Translations under genes and position numbers: made by a program | The notes under the pieces: generated by a model | Seen by the model: the letters and a program-made list of their open reading frames with translations, nothing else | What the model was told of the DNA's origin: nothing | Databases searched by the model: none | DNA from: a virus | Lineage: Duplodnaviria; Heunggongvirae; Uroviricota; Caudoviricetes | Direction: 5' to 3' (one strand) | Length of the DNA: 8,796 nucleotides | IMG/VR virus record: IMGVR_UViG_2693429555_000008 | In this document: positions 3,493 to 8,640 of the stretch, in pieces | Position numbering within the stretch: position 1 is the stretch's first letter | How the letters are laid out: every line of letters begins with the position of its first letter

Positions 3493-3768
3493 GTGGCAAA
3501 AGTTTTTACTCCCGAACTGCGGGAAGAAGTGAAGGCGCGCATTGTGGAACTGGTACGCAGAGATGGGCGAAAAACGCGTAAACAACTGGAAAATGAAACC
3601 GGGGCGACGAGACACCTGATAGAAGTTCTGGTGAAAGAGCTGGTAGTTAGTGGCGCAGTATATGGTTCAGGACATGGAATATTTCCTTCGGAGCAGGCTC
3701 GTAAGGACTGGGGAAAAGCCCGCAAAAAAAATGTCGAGAGCGGCAGTGAAAAAGAAGAGCGACCCTGA
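3493..3768 (+). CDS. Hypothetical small basic protein with winged-helix-like segment (91 aa)
   Basis: GTG 3493 preceded by a strong AGGAGG Shine-Dalgarno (3483..3488), 37 nt after the initiator stop. RKTRKQLENETGATRHLIEVLVKELVVSG looks HTH-like. An A8 run (3724..3731) lies near the 3' end where an overlapping +1 ORF continues to 3901. Confidence 0.5.
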   Translation: MAKVFTPELREEVKARIVELVRRDGRKTRKQLENETGATRHLIEVLVKELVVSGAVYGSGHGIFPSEQARKDWGKARKKNVESGSEKEERP

Positions 3769-4045
3769 CCTGATTTATTCATTGCTAGATGGCGAAATAC
3801 GCCGTTACAACAGACGACAGAATATAATTTGTCGCGAGTGTCGTCAGAGCGAAGTTATGCAGCGCATACTGGAATTTTATCAGGGAAATGTTCGGTATTA
3901 ATTGAAGTGACGAAATTAAAGAGCATTAGTTCAGATATTAATTGACACTTCGATGGCACAGGCCCAGACCTAGTCTGGTTGTCAGCTTTGAGCTAGGTGA
4001 ACGTTGGTATCGTTAGTTTGTATTAATCAACGGAGAATAGGCCAA

Positions 4046-4144: not shown

Positions 4145-6943
4145 ATGTGGGGAAGTGAAAACAAACAAAATCTGGACGTACTGGATCCTGTGCAGTTGGT
4201 GCGTATCGAAGCGGTACACCGGGGGTTCCTTTACCAGCATCTTTACGCTGTAGGCTGCTTACTTTTGGCGCAGAGGGCAGCTATGGACTCAGTAACTGTC
4301 GAGCTTGATGAGGATATTGAGCTGAAATCCAAACAGGAACGTCTCTACATTCAGGTTAAAACCCGTTCAAAACCTATTATGCCCAACGATGTGTCGGGGG
4401 CTCTGGAGCGATTTGTAAAGCTCAGAAATGAGCATACTTCGGCAAACCGCGAAGGGGTGGCTTCTTTTGTGATTATTGTAAACCAGGCGCCTGGACCGCT
4501 GCTTCAGAAGATGATTGACGATAAAAAGCTTCCTTCTGATGTTCTTATTGTCTGGCCCCAGTCGACAGCTGGACGTCACCCGGCACTTCCGCCCGCATGG
4601 AGTACTCTGGCTGATGCGGCCACATGGTGTATCGCAGAAGCAGAAAAGCTGAAATTTTCACTATTGTCCCCAGAATCCTTGATTTGGAAGTTAGCAGGAT
4701 TGGTTCAGCTTGCCGCCACCGGAGGCGATACCAATGGACAACATACGTTTTTCACGGAAGAACTTACTGAACTATTTGAACAGTTGATCGTTCAGCTACA
4801 GGACTTTCCTGCACCACCAGCACTGTACCGCCCACAGAACGAAGAACCTTCTCTCACATCTGGTGAGCGGATCCGTATCCTTTGTGGACTCTCAGGTGCA
4901 GGCAAGACAGCTTGGGCCGCACAGGCCGCATTACACTCCACTGCACTTTGTGCTTATTACGACACCGGTGATCTTCCCGGTCCAGCTCTGGCCAGTACGC
5001 TGGTGCGCGAGATGGCTGCTAGATTTACAGCCCGTGACCAAGACGGTTTGCGCAGGATTTTGCTCCCCGGTGCCAGTGGTTTTGAGGCTCTTAGGAGTTT
5101 TGATACCTACCTGAAAGAGCAGGGTACCACCTTGGTGCTGGTTCTGGATAACGCCCATCGTGTACCTGCGGAAAATCTACTGGATGTTCTGAATGCAACT
5201 ACACATATTCGTTTTGTGCTGTTGTGCCAGCCTCACGAAAACGTTCGCGAACTGGAGGTCATGACGGGGCTACAGCGCGAGGGCCTGCAGGGATGGAATC
5301 TCGATACGGTAGCTGTCGTTGTAAACGATATCGGAGGATTTGCCACCGCTATGGGATACGAGCAGCTACGGGCTTACACTGGTGGTCTTCCCCTGTATGT
5401 AGAGAGCGCCGCAAAAATCGCCGTTTCTGATTATGAGCGTAATGTCGATGCTCTGTGTGCTGAACTCCAGCAACAAACCCATACTGCGGAAACCGCCCAA
5501 GAAATTATTCTGTCACGTGTATTTCAGGGATTTGAATCACTACTTCAGAGCGCGCTGGCATTGTTCAGTCTCTCTGACGTAGGGCTGAGTCGCGAAGAGA
5601 TTTCTACGCTCCTAATCAATTCGCTGAACATTTCACCAAGCAGTGCTGCTTCTTTAATTAGGAAAATGCGCGCTACTGGCACTATTGAAATTTATGGAAA
5701 CCAGACCCTGAAGGTACATGATGCTGTCAGGGGGCTAGGACTGCAACATCTGGAACTGATGGATCAGGGTATATCGAACAAAGCGCTACTAGCGCTGAAA
5801 GACCTTTTAGTTGAAAGTCTTCATAATACCCGCAATACAAAACGGTTATCGTTGTTGACTCAACTTTATATTAAGCTCAATGATGTCACGACGTTGATCG
5901 AACTCTCAGGCCAAGAAATGTTTTATGAGATGGGCGTGACGGTCGACATTCTTGCAAGCTTGGAGCGTGCTGCAACATCGGACTTATTGGGACCTGTTCA
6001 TAAATTCTGGGCATTGGATGGCCTTGTTTTCGTTGAGCTTAAAGACGGAATATCCGACCACATTGCTCAGAGGTTAAACATCATGGGAGCTTTACTTGCG
6101 GAGCACAAGTTCGGCTATCAAGAAGAGATGGCCTATGCAATGAAACGAATGTTATTTTCGGCAGAAAGCAATGATGCACGAGAAGTTCAAAAGCTGGCAC
6201 AGGAAGTCCGCCCCCAACTCCCAGATGAAGAACATAAACGCATCTTTGACTACAACCATGCCATTGCACTCTGGAGATTAAAAAAACTCAAGGATGCTGA
6301 AACATTAAGCTGTAATGTTATACAAGGGTACTATTCTTTATTTGGTATCACACCTGCTGATGTCATAGGAAAAAACGCCGACGCATTATGGAAAACTATT
6401 AATCATTCCGAAAATATGCAGGAACACTTTAAACATATGGCTGATGCTCTGGAGTTGCTGGCCAGAATTCGTGATGCGCAGGGAAAACTGTCACCATTAC
6501 TGCGTATTCATTCGATGAAGTTCTACAATCTGGCCATGGCCCCGGAATCCATGGTCAGGGTGGGCCAAGATCTGGCGGATGAGTTTGTTGCCATAAAGGA
6601 TTACGACGGTGCCAAGGAAGTCATGGAGCAACATGTCCTGCCGGTTGTCAATGAGGCAGGTCTAGTACATCGACTGATTCAGGTTCGAAGCCAATACGCA
6701 GTCATATTAGCACTATCGGGTCAGCATAAAGCAGCTGATGTCGAAATGCAGCGCCTTGCTCCCTATATCGAAGGCCTCACAGGTGTACAGCGTCAAGAAA
6801 TCCAAAATCAATCAAATTACATCGTACAGCTTGCCCATAAAGCAGCAAAGACTAAATTAACTGAAGTTTTTGGTGCGGTCGGCCGGAATGAACAATGCCC
6901 CTGTGGCTCGGGAATAAAGTACAAAAAATGTCACGGTGCCTGA
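4145..6943 (+). CDS. STAND/NB-ARC-like P-loop NTPase, 932 aa, with nuclease-like N-terminal domain, helical C-terminal region and terminal SEC-C zinc motif; candidate anti-phage defence protein
   Basis: Uninterrupted 2.8-kb ORF with its own Shine-Dalgarno. Walker A GLSGAGKT (4886..4909); Walker B-like LVLVLDNAH (5132..5158); HIRFVLLCQPHE resembling an NB-ARC RNBS-B/TTR motif; GGLPLYV resembling the GLPL motif (5381..5398); C-terminal CPCGSGIKYKKCHG (6896..6937) matching the SEC-C metal-binding motif. N-terminal GFLYQHLY and D/E-rich strand followed by QVK are compatible with a PD-(D/E)xK fold. GC content looks lower than in the flanking phage genes. Confidence 0.9.
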   Translation: MWGSENKQNLDVLDPVQLVRIEAVHRGFLYQHLYAVGCLLLAQRAAMDSVTVELDEDIELKSKQERLYIQVKTRSKPIMPNDVSGALERFVKLRNEHTSANREGVASFVIIVNQAPGPLLQKMIDDKKLPSDVLIVWPQSTAGRHPALPPAWSTLADAATWCIAEAEKLKFSLLSPESLIWKLAGLVQLAATGGDTNGQHTFFTEELTELFEQLIVQLQDFPAPPALYRPQNEEPSLTSGERIRILCGLSGAGKTAWAAQAALHSTALCAYYDTGDLPGPALASTLVREMAARFTARDQDGLRRILLPGASGFEALRSFDTYLKEQGTTLVLVLDNAHRVPAENLLDVLNATTHIRFVLLCQPHENVRELEVMTGLQREGLQGWNLDTVAVVVNDIGGFATAMGYEQLRAYTGGLPLYVESAAKIAVSDYERNVDALCAELQQQTHTAETAQEIILSRVFQGFESLLQSALALFSLSDVGLSREEISTLLINSLNISPSSAASLIRKMRATGTIEIYGNQTLKVHDAVRGLGLQHLELMDQGISNKALLALKDLLVESLHNTRNTKRLSLLTQLYIKLNDVTTLIELSGQEMFYEMGVTVDILASLERAATSDLLGPVHKFWALDGLVFVELKDGISDHIAQRLNIMGALLAEHKFGYQEEMAYAMKRMLFSAESNDAREVQKLAQEVRPQLPDEEHKRIFDYNHAIALWRLKKLKDAETLSCNVIQGYYSLFGITPADVIGKNADALWKTINHSENMQEHFKHMADALELLARIRDAQGKLSPLLRIHSMKFYNLAMAPESMVRVGQDLADEFVAIKDYDGAKEVMEQHVLPVVNEAGLVHRLIQVRSQYAVILALSGQHKAADVEMQRLAPYIEGLTGVQRQEIQNQSNYIVQLAHKAAKTKLTEVFGAVGRNEQCPCGSGIKYKKCHGA

Positions 6944-7016
6944 GTCTTTGTACGACCATGCGGGCCTTATTGTCTTGCTATTGCTCTTATGGTTCGCCTT
7001 TCTGATTGATTTCATA

Positions 7017-7045
7017 TTGGCGAGGTGACGGGAGTTAAGTAGAAT
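7017..7045 (+). promoter_or_regulatory. Candidate hok/mok mRNA promoter (-35 TTGGCG 7017..7022, -10 TAGAAT 7040..7045)
   Basis: 17-bp spacer. The predicted start near 7052 would give a ~110-nt leader and a ~420-nt transcript ending at the terminator 7445..7471, the size expected for hok-family mRNAs. Confidence 0.35.
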
Positions 7046-7098
7046 GGCTGCGGGTGCTTGAGGCTATCTGTCTCAGGCATGAACACCAAAGGCAGATA

Positions 7099-7172
7099 GA
7101 GAAAAGCCCCAGTTAACATTACGCGTCCTGCAAGACGCTTAACATTAATCTGAGGCTCAATCTATGAACGGC
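7099..7172 (-). ncRNA. sok: Candidate Sok-like antisense RNA
   Basis: Minus-strand promoter -35 TTGCCT (rc of 7202..7207) and -10 TAACCT (rc of 7179..7184), 17-bp spacer, start near 7172. The transcript would be complementary to the mok Shine-Dalgarno and start codon (7152..7166), contain hairpin GCGTC-CTGCAA-GACGC (7123..7138) and end in a U-rich tract (rc of 7099..7105). Boundaries are approximate. Confidence 0.35.
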
Positions 7173-7376
7173 AAATCTAGGTTAGCCTCTTACGTGCCGA
7201 AAGGCAAGGAGAAGCAGGCTATGAAGCAGCAAAAGGCGATGTTAATCGTCCTGATCGTCATCTGTTTAACCGTCATAGTGACGGCACTGGTAACGAGGAA
7301 AGACCTCTGCGAGGTACGAATCCGAACCGGCCAGACGGAGGTCGCTGTCTTCACAGCTTACGAACCTGAGGAGTAA
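7164..7376 (+). CDS. mok: Mok-like reading frame (70 aa), an in-frame N-terminal extension of hok
   Basis: ATG 7164 with GAGG Shine-Dalgarno 8 nt upstream; in frame with hok and sharing its stop, as I recall for chromosomal mokC/hokC. Its start region is the predicted Sok target. Confidence 0.5.
   Translation: MNGKSRLASYVPKGKEKQAMKQQKAMLIVLIVICLTVIVTALVTRKDLCEVRIRTGQTEVAVFTAYEPEE
7221..7376 (+). CDS. hok: Hok/Gef-family type I toxin (51 aa membrane peptide), HokD/RelF-like
   Basis: Translation MKQQKAMLIVLIVICLTVIVTALVTRKDLCEVRIRTGQTEVAVFTAYEPEE is nearly identical to the E. coli HokD/RelF sequence as I recall it; hydrophobic transmembrane helix followed by the conserved RKDLCEV...GQTEVAVF core. 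Confidence 0.9.
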   Translation: MKQQKAMLIVLIVICLTVIVTALVTRKDLCEVRIRTGQTEVAVFTAYEPEE

Positions 7377-7444
7377 GAGATCAGGCGGGGGAGAAATCCC
7401 TCGCCACCTCTGATGTGTCAGGCATCCTCAATGCACCCGCACTT

Positions 7445-7471
7445 AACCCGCTTCGGCGGGTTTTGTTTTTT
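7445..7471 (+). terminator. Intrinsic terminator of the hok transcript
   Basis: Stem AACCCGC (7445..7451), loop TTCG, stem GCGGGTT (7456..7462), then TTTTGTTTTTT to 7471. Confidence 0.7.
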
Positions 7472-7543
7472 CCTGGCATTCTGGTTTACAATTCGCACGC
7501 CAGCCTGAACAACTGGCACCTGCTGCGCCAGCAGAGACAACCG

Positions 7544-7822
7544 ATGGCGCACGATACCAAATTACACAATTCTAATGATTCTGCTGTCTTTGCCAGCAGG
7601 TGCGGACGGCGTTTTCACGCATTCACATCAGACTGGTTCCAGCATCCTCCATGCACTGAAGAGCAGGCTGAATGGATAATTCAGTGTTACCGCAGGCGTG
7701 GATACGAGGTTAAGAAAGCTCTTAGTCTCGACTATCGTCACTGGATAATCTCAGTCAGACTCCCTTACTCCGAACGCCCACCGCGTCCGTCCCGCACATT
7801 CCAGCAACGCATCTGGAGGTAA
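7544..7822 (+). CDS. Hypothetical 92-aa protein, paralog copy 1 (Cys/His/Arg/Trp-rich; Rem-like position after hok)
   Basis: Track ORF 7415..7822 contains the hok terminator, so the start is placed at ATG 7544 (MAHDTKLHNSND...WFQHPPCTEEQAEWIIQCYRRRGYEV...). Near-identical to the 8145..8423 product over the C-terminal ~65 residues. In the Qin prophage hokD is followed by rem then ydfU; assignment is by synteny only. Confidence 0.55.
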   Translation: MAHDTKLHNSNDSAVFASRCGRRFHAFTSDWFQHPPCTEEQAEWIIQCYRRRGYEVKKALSLDYRHWIISVRLPYSERPPRPSRTFQQRIWR

Positions 7823-8039
7823 CGTGCGGGTATTACTTCGACCTGTTCTGGTACCGGAACTCGGGCTGGTGATCGTTAAGCCGGGCCGTGAATCCATGCC
7901 GGTATTCCACAATACCCGGGTACTGGTGGAGCCGGAACCGAAAAGCATGCGTAATCTGCCGTCCGGGGTCGTTCCTGCCGTTCGCCAGCCGCTGGTGGAA
8001 GACAAAACATTGCTGCCGTTTTTCAGTAACGCACGGGTA
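7616..8039. repeat. Tandem direct repeat, unit A (424 bp, ~95% identical to unit B)
   Basis: Base-by-base comparison with 8217..8640, offset exactly 601 bp, with a handful of substitutions. Confidence 0.85.
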
Positions 8040-8078: not shown

Positions 8079-8144
8079 ACTCATCTACAATCTTGCGCGG
8101 GGCTGAACTCCCGCTGAGTAACACCGTGCCACCGGAGAAAACCG

Positions 8145-8423
8145 ATGGCACGCAACGTAAAATATTACAATTCTGATAATTCGCCCGTTCTTGCCTGCAC
8201 GCACGAGCGGTATTCTCACGCATTCAAGTCTGAATGGTTCCAGCACCCTCCATGCACTGAAGAGCAGGCGGAATGGATAATTCAGTGTTACCGCAGGCGC
8301 GGATACGAGGTTAAGAAAGCTCTTAGTCTCGACTACCGTCACTGGATAATCTCAGTCAGATTGCCTAACTCCGAACGCCCACCGCGTCCGTCCCGTACAT
8401 TCCAGCAACGCATCTGGAGGTAA
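8145..8423 (+). CDS. Hypothetical 92-aa protein, paralog copy 2
   Basis: ATG 8145 with GGAGA Shine-Dalgarno (8134..8138); MARNVKYYNSDNSPVLACTHERYSHAFKSEWFQHPPCTEEQ.... The N-terminal ~25 residues differ from copy 1; the rest is near-identical. Confidence 0.6.
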   Translation: MARNVKYYNSDNSPVLACTHERYSHAFKSEWFQHPPCTEEQAEWIIQCYRRRGYEVKKALSLDYRHWIISVRLPNSERPPRPSRTFQQRIWR

Positions 8424-8640
8424 CGTGCGGGTATTACTTCGACCTGTTCTGGTACCGGAACTCGGGATGGTGGTCGTTAAGCCGGGCCGTGAATCCATGC
8501 CGGTATTCCACAATACCCGGGTACTGGTGGAGCCGGAACCGAAAAGCATGCGTAATCTGCCGTCCGGGGTCGTTCCTGCCGTTCGCCAGCCGCTGGTGGA
8601 AGACAAAACATTGCTGCCGTTTTTCAGTAACGCACGGGTA
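8217..8640. repeat. Tandem direct repeat, unit B
   Basis: See unit A. Confidence 0.85.

What the first reader, a model, noticed from the sequence alone, without database searches (positions are those of the whole stretch)
7017..7471. Complete hok/mok/sok type I toxin-antitoxin locus immediately downstream of the candidate defence gene
Hok is unambiguous at the protein level, and the surrounding non-coding features fit the canonical locus: an in-frame Mok leader ORF, a convergent Sok-like promoter whose transcript would cover the mok start, and a strong terminator. In Qin, hokD follows relBE; here relBE is absent and the large NTPase gene occupies the upstream position. Hok may stabilise the island, or the two genes may form a co-selected defence/addiction pair.
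Basis: partly seen in the sequence, partly recalled or inferred. Interest (0 to 1): 0.55.

Follow-up and report, generated by a model that had tools for sequence, protein, structure and literature searches.

The report
Intact hokD-type hok/mok/sok toxin-antitoxin locus
This is a complete, ordinary copy of the textbook hok/sok "host-killing" toxin-antitoxin cassette carried by a lambda-like E. coli prophage; near-identical copies occur in about 72% of complete E. coli genomes, and it is not specifically tied to the defence-like gene upstream.

Summary
Window 7017-7472 holds every sequence element of a hok/mok/sok type I toxin-antitoxin locus.

- **Coding:** a 51-aa Hok (Pfam HOK_GEF, 81 bits) and an in-frame 70-aa Mok.
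- **Leader:** Rfam RF01794 scores 110 bits against a threshold of 59.
- **Antisense gene:** its promoter is base-for-base identical to the mutationally defined sokW promoter of phage 933W/Sp5. The predicted 71-nt Sok covers the mok ribosome-binding site and start codon.
- **mRNA switch:** the boxes tac, ucb, dcb and fbi are present. Folding reproduces the closed full-length form and the open 3'-trimmed form described for plasmid R1.
- **Covariation:** tac/fbi pairing shows compensatory changes across 52 hok loci.

The locus is already known. RefSeq annotates the toxin as hokD, and at least 80% of the 455-bp locus is matched in 3,928 of 5,426 complete E. coli genomes. Its 93%-identical relative hokW-sokW has been characterised experimentally. 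E. coli K-12 hokD is the truncated form, with homology starting only at window 7207.

Nine contexts show nine different upstream contents while downstream synteny is largely kept. The gene+hok stretch occurs in only 16 genomes. Interest is low.

The parts
7017..7045 (+). hok/mok mRNA promoter: -35 TTGGCG (7017-7022), 17-nt spacer, -10 TAGAAT (7040-7045)
   Evidence: Consensus scan, 9 of 12 positions. The -10 hexamer is conserved in the prophage-type loci, while the -35 region varies. The inferred transcription start at 7052 coincides with position 1 of Rfam RF01794.
7052..7472 (+). Full-length hok mRNA, about 420 nt (ends inferred)
   Evidence: Runs from Rfam model position 1 at 7052 to the terminator. 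MFE -170.6 kcal/mol, z = -5.98.
7052..7063 (+). tac (translational activator element), GGGUGCUUGAGG
   Evidence: Pairs with fbi in the full-length fold and with ucb in 3'-trimmed folds. Four of the 12 tac/fbi pairs show compensatory changes across 52 loci.
7064..7099 (+). 5' hairpin of the leader
   Evidence: Present in all folds. Three pairs show changes on both sides across 52 loci.
7104..7110 (+). ucb (upstream complementary box, the anti-SD of mok), AAGCCCC
   Evidence: Pairs with the mok SD in the full-length fold and with tac in trimmed folds. Invariant in 52 loci, although it was not part of the search pattern.
7102..7172 (-). Sok antisense RNA, 71 nt: 5' single-stranded tail, long hairpin, U-tract
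   Evidence: Coordinates transferred from the sokW misc_RNA of AF125520. 64 of 71 nt identical to sokW. The 80-nt stretch 7172->7093 that contains it folds at -33.3 kcal/mol, z = -5.67. The sokW RNA itself was detected by northern blot in Sp5 (PMC8621323).
7179..7207 (-). Sok promoter: -35 TTGCCT (7207-7202), 17-nt spacer, -10 TAACCT (7184-7179)
   Evidence: 29 of 29 nt identical to 933W. Mutagenic primer YO-421 of PMC8621323 replaces exactly this -10 in the promoter-less sokW construct that lost antitoxin activity. The generic scan does not call it.
7152..7155 (+). mok Shine-Dalgarno sequence, GAGG
   Evidence: Lies 8 nt upstream of the mok AUG. Conserved in nearly all of 52 loci. Alternately pairs with ucb or dcb.
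7164..7376 (+). mok ORF, 70 aa, in frame with hok (an N-terminally extended Hok)
   Evidence: ORF list. Same layout as mokW of 933W.
7184..7189 (+). dcb (downstream complementary box); overlaps the Sok -10 on the other strand
   Evidence: Pairs with the mok SD (7152-7157) in trimmed folds ending at 7425, 7410 and 7406. This matches the helix in the Rfam consensus structure.
7206..7211 (+). hok Shine-Dalgarno sequence, AAGGAG; overlaps the Sok -35 on the other strand
   Evidence: Lies 9 nt upstream of the hok AUG.
7221..7376 (+). hok CDS, 51-aa membrane toxin
   Evidence: PF01848, 81.2 bits. 50 of 51 residues identical to K-12 HokD and 46 of 51 to HokW. RefSeq annotates it as hokD in a 99.8%-identical genome.
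7384..7405 (+). G+C-rich 3' hairpin, the presumed 3' end of the processed (truncated) mRNA
   Evidence: Present in all folds. Four pairs show compensatory changes across 52 loci. The R1 equivalent protects the truncated mRNA from 3' exonucleases (PMC9841398).
7426..7438 (+). fbi (fold-back inhibitory element), CCUCAAUGCACCC
   Evidence: Pairs with tac at -21.1 kcal/mol; 5 of 2000 shuffles reach this. It is the best tac partner in the whole window apart from tac's own complement. Covaries with tac.
7445..7472 (+). Intrinsic terminator: 7-bp stem (5 G-C pairs), 4-nt loop, T-run
   Evidence: Terminator scan.

Best explanation
[quoted passage not shown] It sits in the early-right (replication-to-Q) region of a Qin/Rac-like lambdoid prophage of E. 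coli. The mechanism below is taken from plasmid R1 and checked here at the sequence and folding level.

1. A promoter at 7017-7045, a partial match to consensus (9 of 12), makes a ~420-nt mRNA starting near 7052.
2. In the full-length RNA the 5' end (tac, 7052-7063) pairs with fbi (7426-7438). The mok ribosome-binding site (7152-7157) is held by ucb (7105-7110). The RNA is therefore expected to be untranslated (computed fold); that this form is also stable and closed to Sok is taken from plasmid R1.
3. Slow 3' trimming back to the hairpin at 7384-7405 removes fbi. tac then switches to ucb and the mok SD switches to dcb (7184-7189). This is the translatable form that Sok can bind (computed for three of five trial 3' ends; the trimming itself is inferred from R1).
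4. A 71-nt unstable antisense RNA, Sok (7172->7102), is made from TTGCCT-17-TAACCT. It pairs with the mok translation start region and blocks mok, and therefore the coupled hok translation. The duplex is cut by RNase III (shown for R1; partial RNase III and Hfq dependence shown for sokW).
5. When Sok supply stops, Mok and Hok are made and Hok depolarises the inner membrane.

The most likely role here follows hokW-sokW of prophage Sp5, which is 93% identical in DNA. Sok disappears on prophage induction and Hok speeds lysis and phage release. Prophage retention or abortive infection are possible additional roles. The role is inferred, not tested.
For: - Hok domain, 81 bits.
- Leader covariance model, 110 bits against a threshold of 59, full length 1-157. 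The same model hits the hok-sense strand in 11 other intact loci but gives no hit in the truncated K-12 hokD locus.
- In-frame mok.
- Sok promoter identical to the experimentally mutated sokW promoter, and Sok 64/71 identical to sokW.
- Sok-containing stretch folds with z = -5.7 and has a U-tract.
- The full-length MFE contains tac/fbi and ucb/SD(mok). Trimmed RNAs ending at 7425, 7410 and 7406 switch to tac/ucb and SD(mok)/dcb. These are the two states described for R1 in PMC9841398.
- tac/fbi: 88% of cells paired against 37-58% in slid controls; 4 of 12 pairs have changes on both sides, for example U-A in 36 loci and C-G in 16. The four tac variants each have a matching fbi.
- Experimental support in the closest relative: HokW is toxic, sokW was detected by northern blot, a promoter-less sokW loses protection, and deleting hokW-sokW halves phage release (PMC8621323).
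- The locus is widespread and conserved.
Against: - There are no expression data for this locus. Transcript ends, 3' processing, toxicity and the antisense RNA are all inferred.
- The Sok promoter matches only 7 of 12 consensus positions (my count) and is missed by the generic scan.
- NCBIfam Hok models score below their curated cut-offs (49.5 against 73).
- Two of five trial 3' ends (7430 and 7420) fold into other structures rather than the open form, so the predicted switch depends on the true processing site.
- The 52-locus alignment was filtered for an intact Hok ORF and a tac/3'UTR duplex of -16 kcal/mol or better. This inflates the percentage paired, though not the compensatory changes.
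- Many chromosomal hok loci, including all but hokB in K-12, are reported to be inactive (PMC12214031).
- In 933W the locus lies near attR, in a different neighbourhood, so its role there may not transfer.
Confidence: 0.9

Rival explanations
1. The locus is a decayed or silent relic. It looks complete but is not expressed or not toxic, like most chromosomal hok loci of E. coli K-12.
For: K-12 hokA, hokC and hokE are reported to be disrupted by insertion elements and hokD by rearrangement (PMC12214031). Several loci retrieved here are visibly broken: IS421 next to L010, a frameshifted hokC in Shigella L014, and no Hok ORF in L018 and L039. The hok promoter is only a 9/12 match.
Against: No lesion is visible in this locus. 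The Hok and Mok ORFs are intact, and tac, ucb, SD, dcb, fbi, both promoters and the terminator are all present. Its tac/fbi energy of -21.1 falls within the intact class, whereas the broken loci score -9.9 to -13.7. The 93%-identical hokW-sokW is functional.
Confidence: 0.07
2. hok/sok and the upstream 932-aa nuclease-ATPase-SEC-C gene form one functional, co-selected two-gene unit, for example a sensor gene with Hok as a suicide effector or as an addiction module for that gene.
For: In all 16 E. coli genomes that carry the 932-aa gene it lies directly upstream of hok. No terminator was found between the two genes. The gene has weak matches to defence-associated domains: Cap4 nuclease, LmuA and DUF4297. 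The R1 hok/sok locus has been reported to exclude phage T4 (cited in PMC8621323; known to me as Pecota and Wood 1996).
Against: At least 80% of the hok locus is matched in 3,928 genomes but the pair occurs in only 16. Homology with other hok loci begins at window 6967-7035, just after the gene's stop codon at 6943, which marks a module boundary. Nine contexts have nine different upstream contents. hok has its own promoter and a self-contained regulator. A survey found no enrichment of hok near defence systems. Constant adjacency is expected for any cargo confined to this one slot.
Confidence: 0.04
3. The molecular mechanism is the same, but the main biological role is prophage retention (post-segregational killing of cells that lose the prophage) or abortive infection against other phages, rather than faster lysis on induction.
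For: Post-segregational killing is the established role of R1 hok/sok. Phage exclusion by hok/sok has been reported (cited). hok is enriched about four-fold in prophages. The neighbouring slot often carries accessory or defence-like cargo.
Against: The only direct experiment on a prophage hok/sok of this subtype found an effect on lysis timing and phage yield after induction, and no growth effect otherwise. That study did not test retention or exclusion, so these roles are untested rather than excluded.
Confidence: 0.3

Closest known systems
hokW/mokW/sokW of Shiga-toxin phage 933W and Sakai prophage Sp5 (AF125520; Takada et al. 2021, PMC8621323)
   Same: The layout is identical: in-frame 70-aa Mok, 51-aa Hok and a 71-nt antisense RNA. 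DNA identity is 92.8% over window 7032-7448. The Sok promoter is 29/29 identical, the tac-to-ucb stretch 56/59 and fbi 12/13. Both are carried by lambdoid prophages.
   Different: Hok is 46/51 identical, with a different C-terminus. Sok is 64/71 identical, and its 5' recognition tail only 10/16. Homology ends at 7448, so 933W has a different 3' end and terminator. In 933W the locus sits near attR, not between the replication genes and Q.
hokD (relF) of the E. coli K-12 Qin prophage
   Same: Hok is 50/51 identical. DNA is 97.7% identical from 7207 to 7470. The same downstream genes follow: 92-aa ORF, DUF968 (ydfU) and an antiterminator. RefSeq uses the name hokD for this window's gene.
   Different: K-12 matches only from window 7207, where relBE abuts. 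It therefore lacks the hok promoter, tac, ucb, the mok start, Sok and the Sok -10. It gives no RF01794 hit. It is described as inactivated by rearrangement (PMC12214031). The window holds the complete form.
hok/mok/sok of plasmid R1 (the paradigm; R1-type copy read here from pKPC-LK30, L012)
   Same: The regulatory logic and all named boxes are shared: tac/fbi closure, ucb anti-SD, dcb, a Sok promoter inside the leader, and a 3' protective hairpin. The same Rfam model hits both, at 106.6 and 110 bits.
   Different: Hok is only 22/51 identical. In the R1 type mok is in a different frame from hok, whereas here it is in frame (read from the alignment). tac is GGCGC with fbi GCGCC, against GGGUGC with GCACCC here. 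The hairpin of the leader/Sok here carries an extra ~16 nt relative to the Rfam consensus. R1 is on a plasmid; this locus is in a prophage.
hokC (gef)/mokC/sokC of the E. coli chromosome
   Same: In-frame Mok, the same tac and fbi sequences, and the same Rfam model at 122 bits.
   Different: Hok is 40/51 identical. It occupies a fixed core-chromosome site between nhaA and dnaJ rather than a prophage. Its Sok hairpin is short.

Membership tests
hok/sok (Hok/Gef) type I toxin-antitoxin loci | A ~50-aa Hok/Gef-family membrane peptide | tested here: met
   PF01848, 81.2 bits against a cut-off of 22, covering the whole 42-position profile. The NCBIfam Hok models match only below their cut-offs.
hok/sok (Hok/Gef) type I toxin-antitoxin loci | An overlapping upstream mok reading frame with its own Shine-Dalgarno sequence | tested here: met
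   ORF 7164-7376 with GAGG at 7152-7155, in frame with hok as in mokW and mokC. Translational coupling itself cannot be tested here.
hok/sok (Hok/Gef) type I toxin-antitoxin loci | A cis-encoded antisense gene (Sok) with a promoter inside the leader, complementary to the mok translation start region | tested here: met
   The promoter is 29/29 identical to sokW, whose -10 was shown to be needed for antitoxin activity. The mapped RNA 7172->7102 covers the SD and AUG of mok. Hairpin plus U-tract, z = -5.7. This is met at the sequence level only.
hok/sok (Hok/Gef) type I toxin-antitoxin loci | The antisense transcript actually exists (~65-75 nt, unstable) | not testable with these tools
   Needs a northern blot or RNA-seq. 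It has been shown for the sokW relative (PMC8621323).
hok/sok (Hok/Gef) type I toxin-antitoxin loci | Long-range 5'-3' closure of the full-length mRNA (tac/fbi) | tested here: met
   12 pairs with one bulge in the MFE. Energy -21.1 kcal/mol, reached by 5 of 2000 shuffles. Compensatory changes at 4 of 12 pairs across 52 loci.
hok/sok (Hok/Gef) type I toxin-antitoxin loci | Alternative pairings: ucb/SD(mok) in the closed form, tac/ucb and SD(mok)/dcb in the open form | tested here: met
   Both states are recovered by folding the full-length and 3'-trimmed RNAs, at 3 of 5 trial ends. The boxes are conserved in 52 loci. tac/ucb never varies, so it offers no covariation evidence for or against.
hok/sok (Hok/Gef) type I toxin-antitoxin loci | Match to the curated covariance model of the locus (Rfam RF01794) | tested here: met
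   110 bits against a gathering score of 59, E 5.5e-25, model positions 1-157 of 157, on the hok-sense strand.
hok/sok (Hok/Gef) type I toxin-antitoxin loci | Slow 3' processing of the mRNA, toxicity of Hok, and killing when Sok decays | not testable with these tools
   These are experimental properties, shown for R1 (PMC9841398) and in part for hokW-sokW (PMC8621323).
hokD orthologue group (prophage Qin/Rac-type hok) | Near-identical Hok sequence and conserved downstream synteny in a lambdoid prophage | tested here: met
   50/51 identical to K-12 HokD. The 92-aa ORF, DUF968, RusA and Q lie downstream in the 99.8%-identical genome, and most recur in the other chromosomal contexts sampled.
Two-gene defence operon with the upstream 932-aa gene | Conserved co-occurrence of the two genes across genomes | tested here: not met
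   At least 80% of the hok locus is matched in 3,928 genomes but the pair in only 16. Nine different upstream contents were seen in nine contexts.

The most novel reading that the evidence does not exclude
The hok/sok cassette may be the fixed right-hand anchor of a variable cargo slot in Qin/Rac-type lambdoid prophages. No terminator separates the cargo from hok. On induction, sense transcription from the early-right operon could therefore run across the convergent Sok promoter and shut Sok off. That would explain why sokW vanishes on induction, and would tie Hok release to expression of whatever cargo sits upstream, including this 932-aa nuclease-ATPase. Separately, the hypervariable 5' tail of Sok may define specificity groups that let up to ten hok loci coexist in one genome without cross-talk.
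Probability: 0.1. Interest if true: 0.4.

Novelty: already known. Interest (0 to 1): 0.08.

Why it matters
It matters little as a discovery. The system is a textbook one. The gene is already named hokD in RefSeq, the mok/hok/sok trio is annotated in the 933W GenBank record, and a 93%-identical copy has been studied experimentally.

Its practical value is for annotation.
- It shows that the window carries the complete ancestral form of the locus that K-12 retains only as a stump.
- It marks the boundary, near window 6967-7035, between conserved prophage backbone and a variable cargo slot. That helps in reading the neighbouring 932-aa gene as independent cargo.
- It flags that the Rfam 'sok' model reports the hok-sense strand, which could mislead automated strand assignment of the antitoxin.

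Tried and rejected
- **Generic promoter scan for Sok:** it found only the hok promoter and an unrelated minus-strand site at 7596-7569. The Sok promoter was identified by homology instead.
- **Rfam hit on the antisense strand:** I expected one, but the only hit is on the plus strand. All 11 other intact loci behave the same way, so I read the model as the hok leader rather than as evidence of an unusual orientation.
- **PADLOC:** no model matches Hok.
- **NCBIfam:** the Hok models match below their cut-offs.
- **Minus-strand ORF 7190-7354 (54 aa):** no family match. Rejected as a gene.
- **Trimmed mRNA ending at 7430 or 7420:** these fold into other long-range pairings rather than the open form. 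I report this as a limit of the prediction.
- **Decayed-locus reading:** rejected because no lesion is visible.
- **Operon with the 932-aa gene:** rejected on the distribution data.
- **Not attempted:** protein homology, structure prediction and metagenome searches were not used, since DNA-level matches settled the identity. The U-turn (YUNR) motif of the Sok target loop was not tested.
Full report
**What is there.**
- Window 7017-7472 carries a 51-aa ORF at 7221-7376. It matches Pfam HOK_GEF over the whole profile (81.2 bits, cut-off 22).
- A 70-aa ORF starts at 7164 and ends at the same stop codon in the same frame. This is Mok. It is preceded by GAGG at 7152-7155.
- A sigma-70-like promoter lies at 7017-7045 (TTGGCG-17-TAGAAT). 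An intrinsic terminator lies at 7445-7462 plus a T-run.
- Rfam gives one hit in the whole 8.8-kb window. RF01794 'sok' scores 110 bits against a gathering score of 59 (E 5.5e-25), at 7052-7226, covering the model end to end.

**A point of interpretation on the Rfam hit.**
- The hit is on the plus strand, the hok-sense strand. It runs from the mRNA 5' end to the hok start codon region.
- The same orientation was found in all 11 other intact hok loci I fetched, including hokC and an R1-type plasmid hok. The truncated K-12 hokD gave no hit.
- The model's consensus helices are the tac/ucb and SD(mok)/dcb stems. Despite its name, it therefore models the hok mRNA leader.
- The hit shows the leader is intact and that the Sok-coding complement is conserved. 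It is not a direct hit to the antisense RNA.

**The antisense gene.**
- The GenBank record of phage 933W annotates mokW, hokW and a sokW misc_RNA. The window aligns to it without net indels over 7032-7448 at 92.8% identity.
- Transferring the coordinates puts Sok at 7172->7102 on the minus strand, 71 nt.
- Upstream on that strand lie TTGCCT (7207-7202), a 17-nt spacer and TAACCT (7184-7179). This 29-nt promoter is identical in the window and in 933W.
- In Takada et al. 2021 the promoter-less sokW construct was built with primer YO-421, which replaces exactly this -10. That construct lost antitoxin activity, and sokW RNA was seen on northern blots (PMC8621323).
- The 80-nt stretch 7172->7093, which contains the mapped RNA, folds into a 5' single-stranded tail, a long hairpin and a U-tract (-33.3 kcal/mol, z = -5.67). 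The mapped RNA covers the mok SD and AUG.
- The generic promoter scan does not call this promoter, which matches only 7 of 12 consensus positions (my count). Its identification rests on homology and on the experiment in the relative.

**The mRNA switch.**
- Le Rhun et al. 2022 summarise the R1 model (PMC9841398). The full-length mRNA is closed by a tac/fbi stem, with the mok SD held by ucb. After 3' trimming, tac pairs with ucb and the mok SD pairs with dcb, giving the translatable form that Sok can bind.
- Folding window 7052-7470 gives the closed state. 7052-7063 pairs with 7426-7438, and 7105-7110 pairs with 7152-7157 (-170.6 kcal/mol, z = -5.98).
- RNAs trimmed to 7425, 7410 or 7406 give the open state. 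7052-7059 pairs with 7104-7110, and 7152-7157 pairs with 7184-7189. Ends at 7430 and 7420 gave other folds.
- The tac/3'UTR duplex (-21.1 kcal/mol) is matched by 5 of 2000 dinucleotide shuffles of the 3'UTR. It is the best tac partner in the window apart from tac's own complement.

**Comparative test.**
- One pattern scan of one-genome-per-species contigs returned 55 stretches, chiefly from Enterobacterales genera including Escherichia, Shigella, Klebsiella, Citrobacter, Enterobacter, Pantoea, Erwinia, Serratia, Franconibacter and Dryocola.
- Four tac variants each have a matching fbi: GGGUGCUUGAGG with CCUCAAYGCACCC, GGCGCUUGAGGC with GCCNNAAGCGCC, GGGUGCUUAGGG with UCUUAAGCACCC, and GGGUGCUUGAGA with CUCARGCACCC. 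The fbi lies at a constant distance of 348-390 nt from the 5' end. Visibly broken loci score only -9.9 to -13.7 kcal/mol.
- On a 52-locus alignment the tac/fbi helix has 4 of 12 pairs with changes on both sides, for example U-A in 36 loci against C-G in 16. The three closed-state helices together are 87% paired, against 37-58% when partners are slid.
- The 3' hairpin has four compensatory pairs and the 5' hairpin has three. tac/ucb is invariant.
- Caveat: the alignment was filtered for an intact Hok ORF and a tac duplex of -16 kcal/mol or better. The dcb, Sok -35 and hok SD boxes were part of the search pattern, so their conservation is by construction. tac, ucb, the mok SD and fbi were not in the pattern.

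**How common it is, and the context.**
- Of 5,426 complete E. coli genomes, 4,943 hold some match to the 455-bp query and 3,928 hold at least 80% of it. The median is 2 places per genome and the maximum is 10. RefSeq labels the CDS hokD.
- It is also present in 110 phage records and on plasmids.
- The window is 99.8% identical to E. coli Z1322HEC0003 up to position 8038. The gene order there is dicB, ydfC, ydfB, DUF1391, repressor-like gene, YdaS, YdaT, replication-like gene, DUF977, the 932-aa SEC-C gene, hokD, a 92-aa ORF, DUF968, RusA, Q. This is a Qin/Rac-like lambdoid prophage with hok co-oriented with the early-right genes.
- K-12 hokD matches only from window 7207, where relBE abuts. 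This agrees with the literature statement that it lost canonical components by rearrangement (PMC12214031). The window therefore holds the complete form.

**Relation to the upstream gene.**
- The 932-aa protein has a weak Cap4-nuclease/LmuA/DUF4297-like N-terminus, a P-loop AAA domain and a C-terminal SEC-C motif.
- The gene+hok stretch is in 16 of 5,426 genomes.
- Homology between this window and other hok loci starts at 6967-7035, just after the gene's stop at 6943.
- Upstream contents differ in all nine contexts examined: this gene; relBE; an integrase fragment plus a hypothetical gene; QueH; a hypothetical gene, a methyltransferase and a SMEK-domain gene; small hypothetical and DUF551/ead-like genes; small hypotheticals; L0139-L0140 in 933W; and HP5 in phage Rac.
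- The downstream genes are conserved in the Qin/Rac-type chromosomal contexts.
- hok is therefore backbone at the edge of a cargo slot, and constant adjacency in 16 genomes is what that predicts. A recent survey also found hok enriched in prophages (23% against 5% expected) but not near defence systems (12% against 9.4%) (bioRxiv 10.1101/2025.08.07.668861).

**Verdict.**
- This is a complete, apparently functional hokD/hokW-type hok/mok/sok locus of a kind that is already known, annotated and experimentally studied.
- The molecular mechanism can be stated with high confidence by homology and folding.
- The biological role in this prophage is inferred. Faster lysis on induction is the only role tested in a close relative. 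Prophage retention and phage exclusion are untested.
- The proposed functional pairing with the upstream gene is not supported.

Noticed in passing
window 7527-8039 and 8128-8640: These two stretches form a 513-bp direct repeat at 91.6% identity. The 92-aa ORF plus the 5' part of the DUF968 gene occur twice (ORFs 7544-7822 and 8145-8423). The window follows CP148579 at 99.8% up to 8038, then switches to sequence 99.5% identical to CP043284. This looks like a recombination joint between two lambdoid prophage backbones, or an assembly chimera.
   Followed up: partly
window 4145-6943 (+): The upstream 932-aa gene has a weak Cap4-nuclease/LmuA/DUF4297-like N-terminus (residues ~25-119), an AAA_22/AAA_16 P-loop domain (239-364) and a C-terminal SEC-C motif (914-931). 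It occurs in only 16 of 5,426 complete E. coli genomes, always in this slot. One copy is interrupted by ISEc52.
   Followed up: partly
window 7157-7178: The ~20 nt between the mok SD and the Sok -10 are the hypervariable part of the locus across hok loci, flanked by near-invariant boxes. They encode mok codons 2-5 and, on the other strand, the 5' recognition tail of Sok. The window and sokW differ at 6 of 16 tail positions. This may set Sok specificity in genomes that carry up to 10 hok loci.
   Followed up: partly
window 7359-7362: The Tyr47 codon of hok is UAC followed by G, within GCUUACGAA. This corresponds to the Tyr codon said to be recoded to Cys by A-to-I mRNA editing (position 46) in HokC, HokD and HokE; editing is reported at 6% for K-12 hokD (PMC12214031). 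The motif is conserved in most of the 52 aligned loci.
   Followed up: no
window 7052-7226 (+), Rfam RF01794: The Rfam family named 'sok antitoxin' matches the hok-sense strand in all 12 intact loci tested. Its consensus structure is the open form of the hok leader. Automated annotation from this model would place 'sok' on the wrong strand and make it about twice too long.
   Followed up: yes
L027 (Dryocola clanedunensis JBBYHZ010000001) 546-2610: Four complete hok loci lie in tandem with a 561-bp period. Each has its own matching tac/fbi pair, and the Hok C-termini differ slightly.
   Followed up: no
L022, L024, L031, L047, L068 (contigs labelled Collinsella, Xanthomonas pisi, Candidatus Scatousia, Haemophilus, Veillonella): The enterobacterial hok leader pattern occurs on short contigs assigned to unrelated taxa. 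L068 carries a hokD-type locus. The likeliest cause is mis-binned or contaminating E. coli prophage DNA in those assemblies.
   Followed up: no
window 3493-3901: The DUF977 gene upstream of the cargo slot is split into two ORFs here. It is annotated as frameshifted in the 99.8%-identical genome.
   Followed up: no
L001 (phage 933W) 447-535: An Rfam RF02221 sRNA-Xcc1 hit (69 bits against a threshold of 53) lies near attR of 933W. It is unrelated to the hok locus.
   Followed up: no
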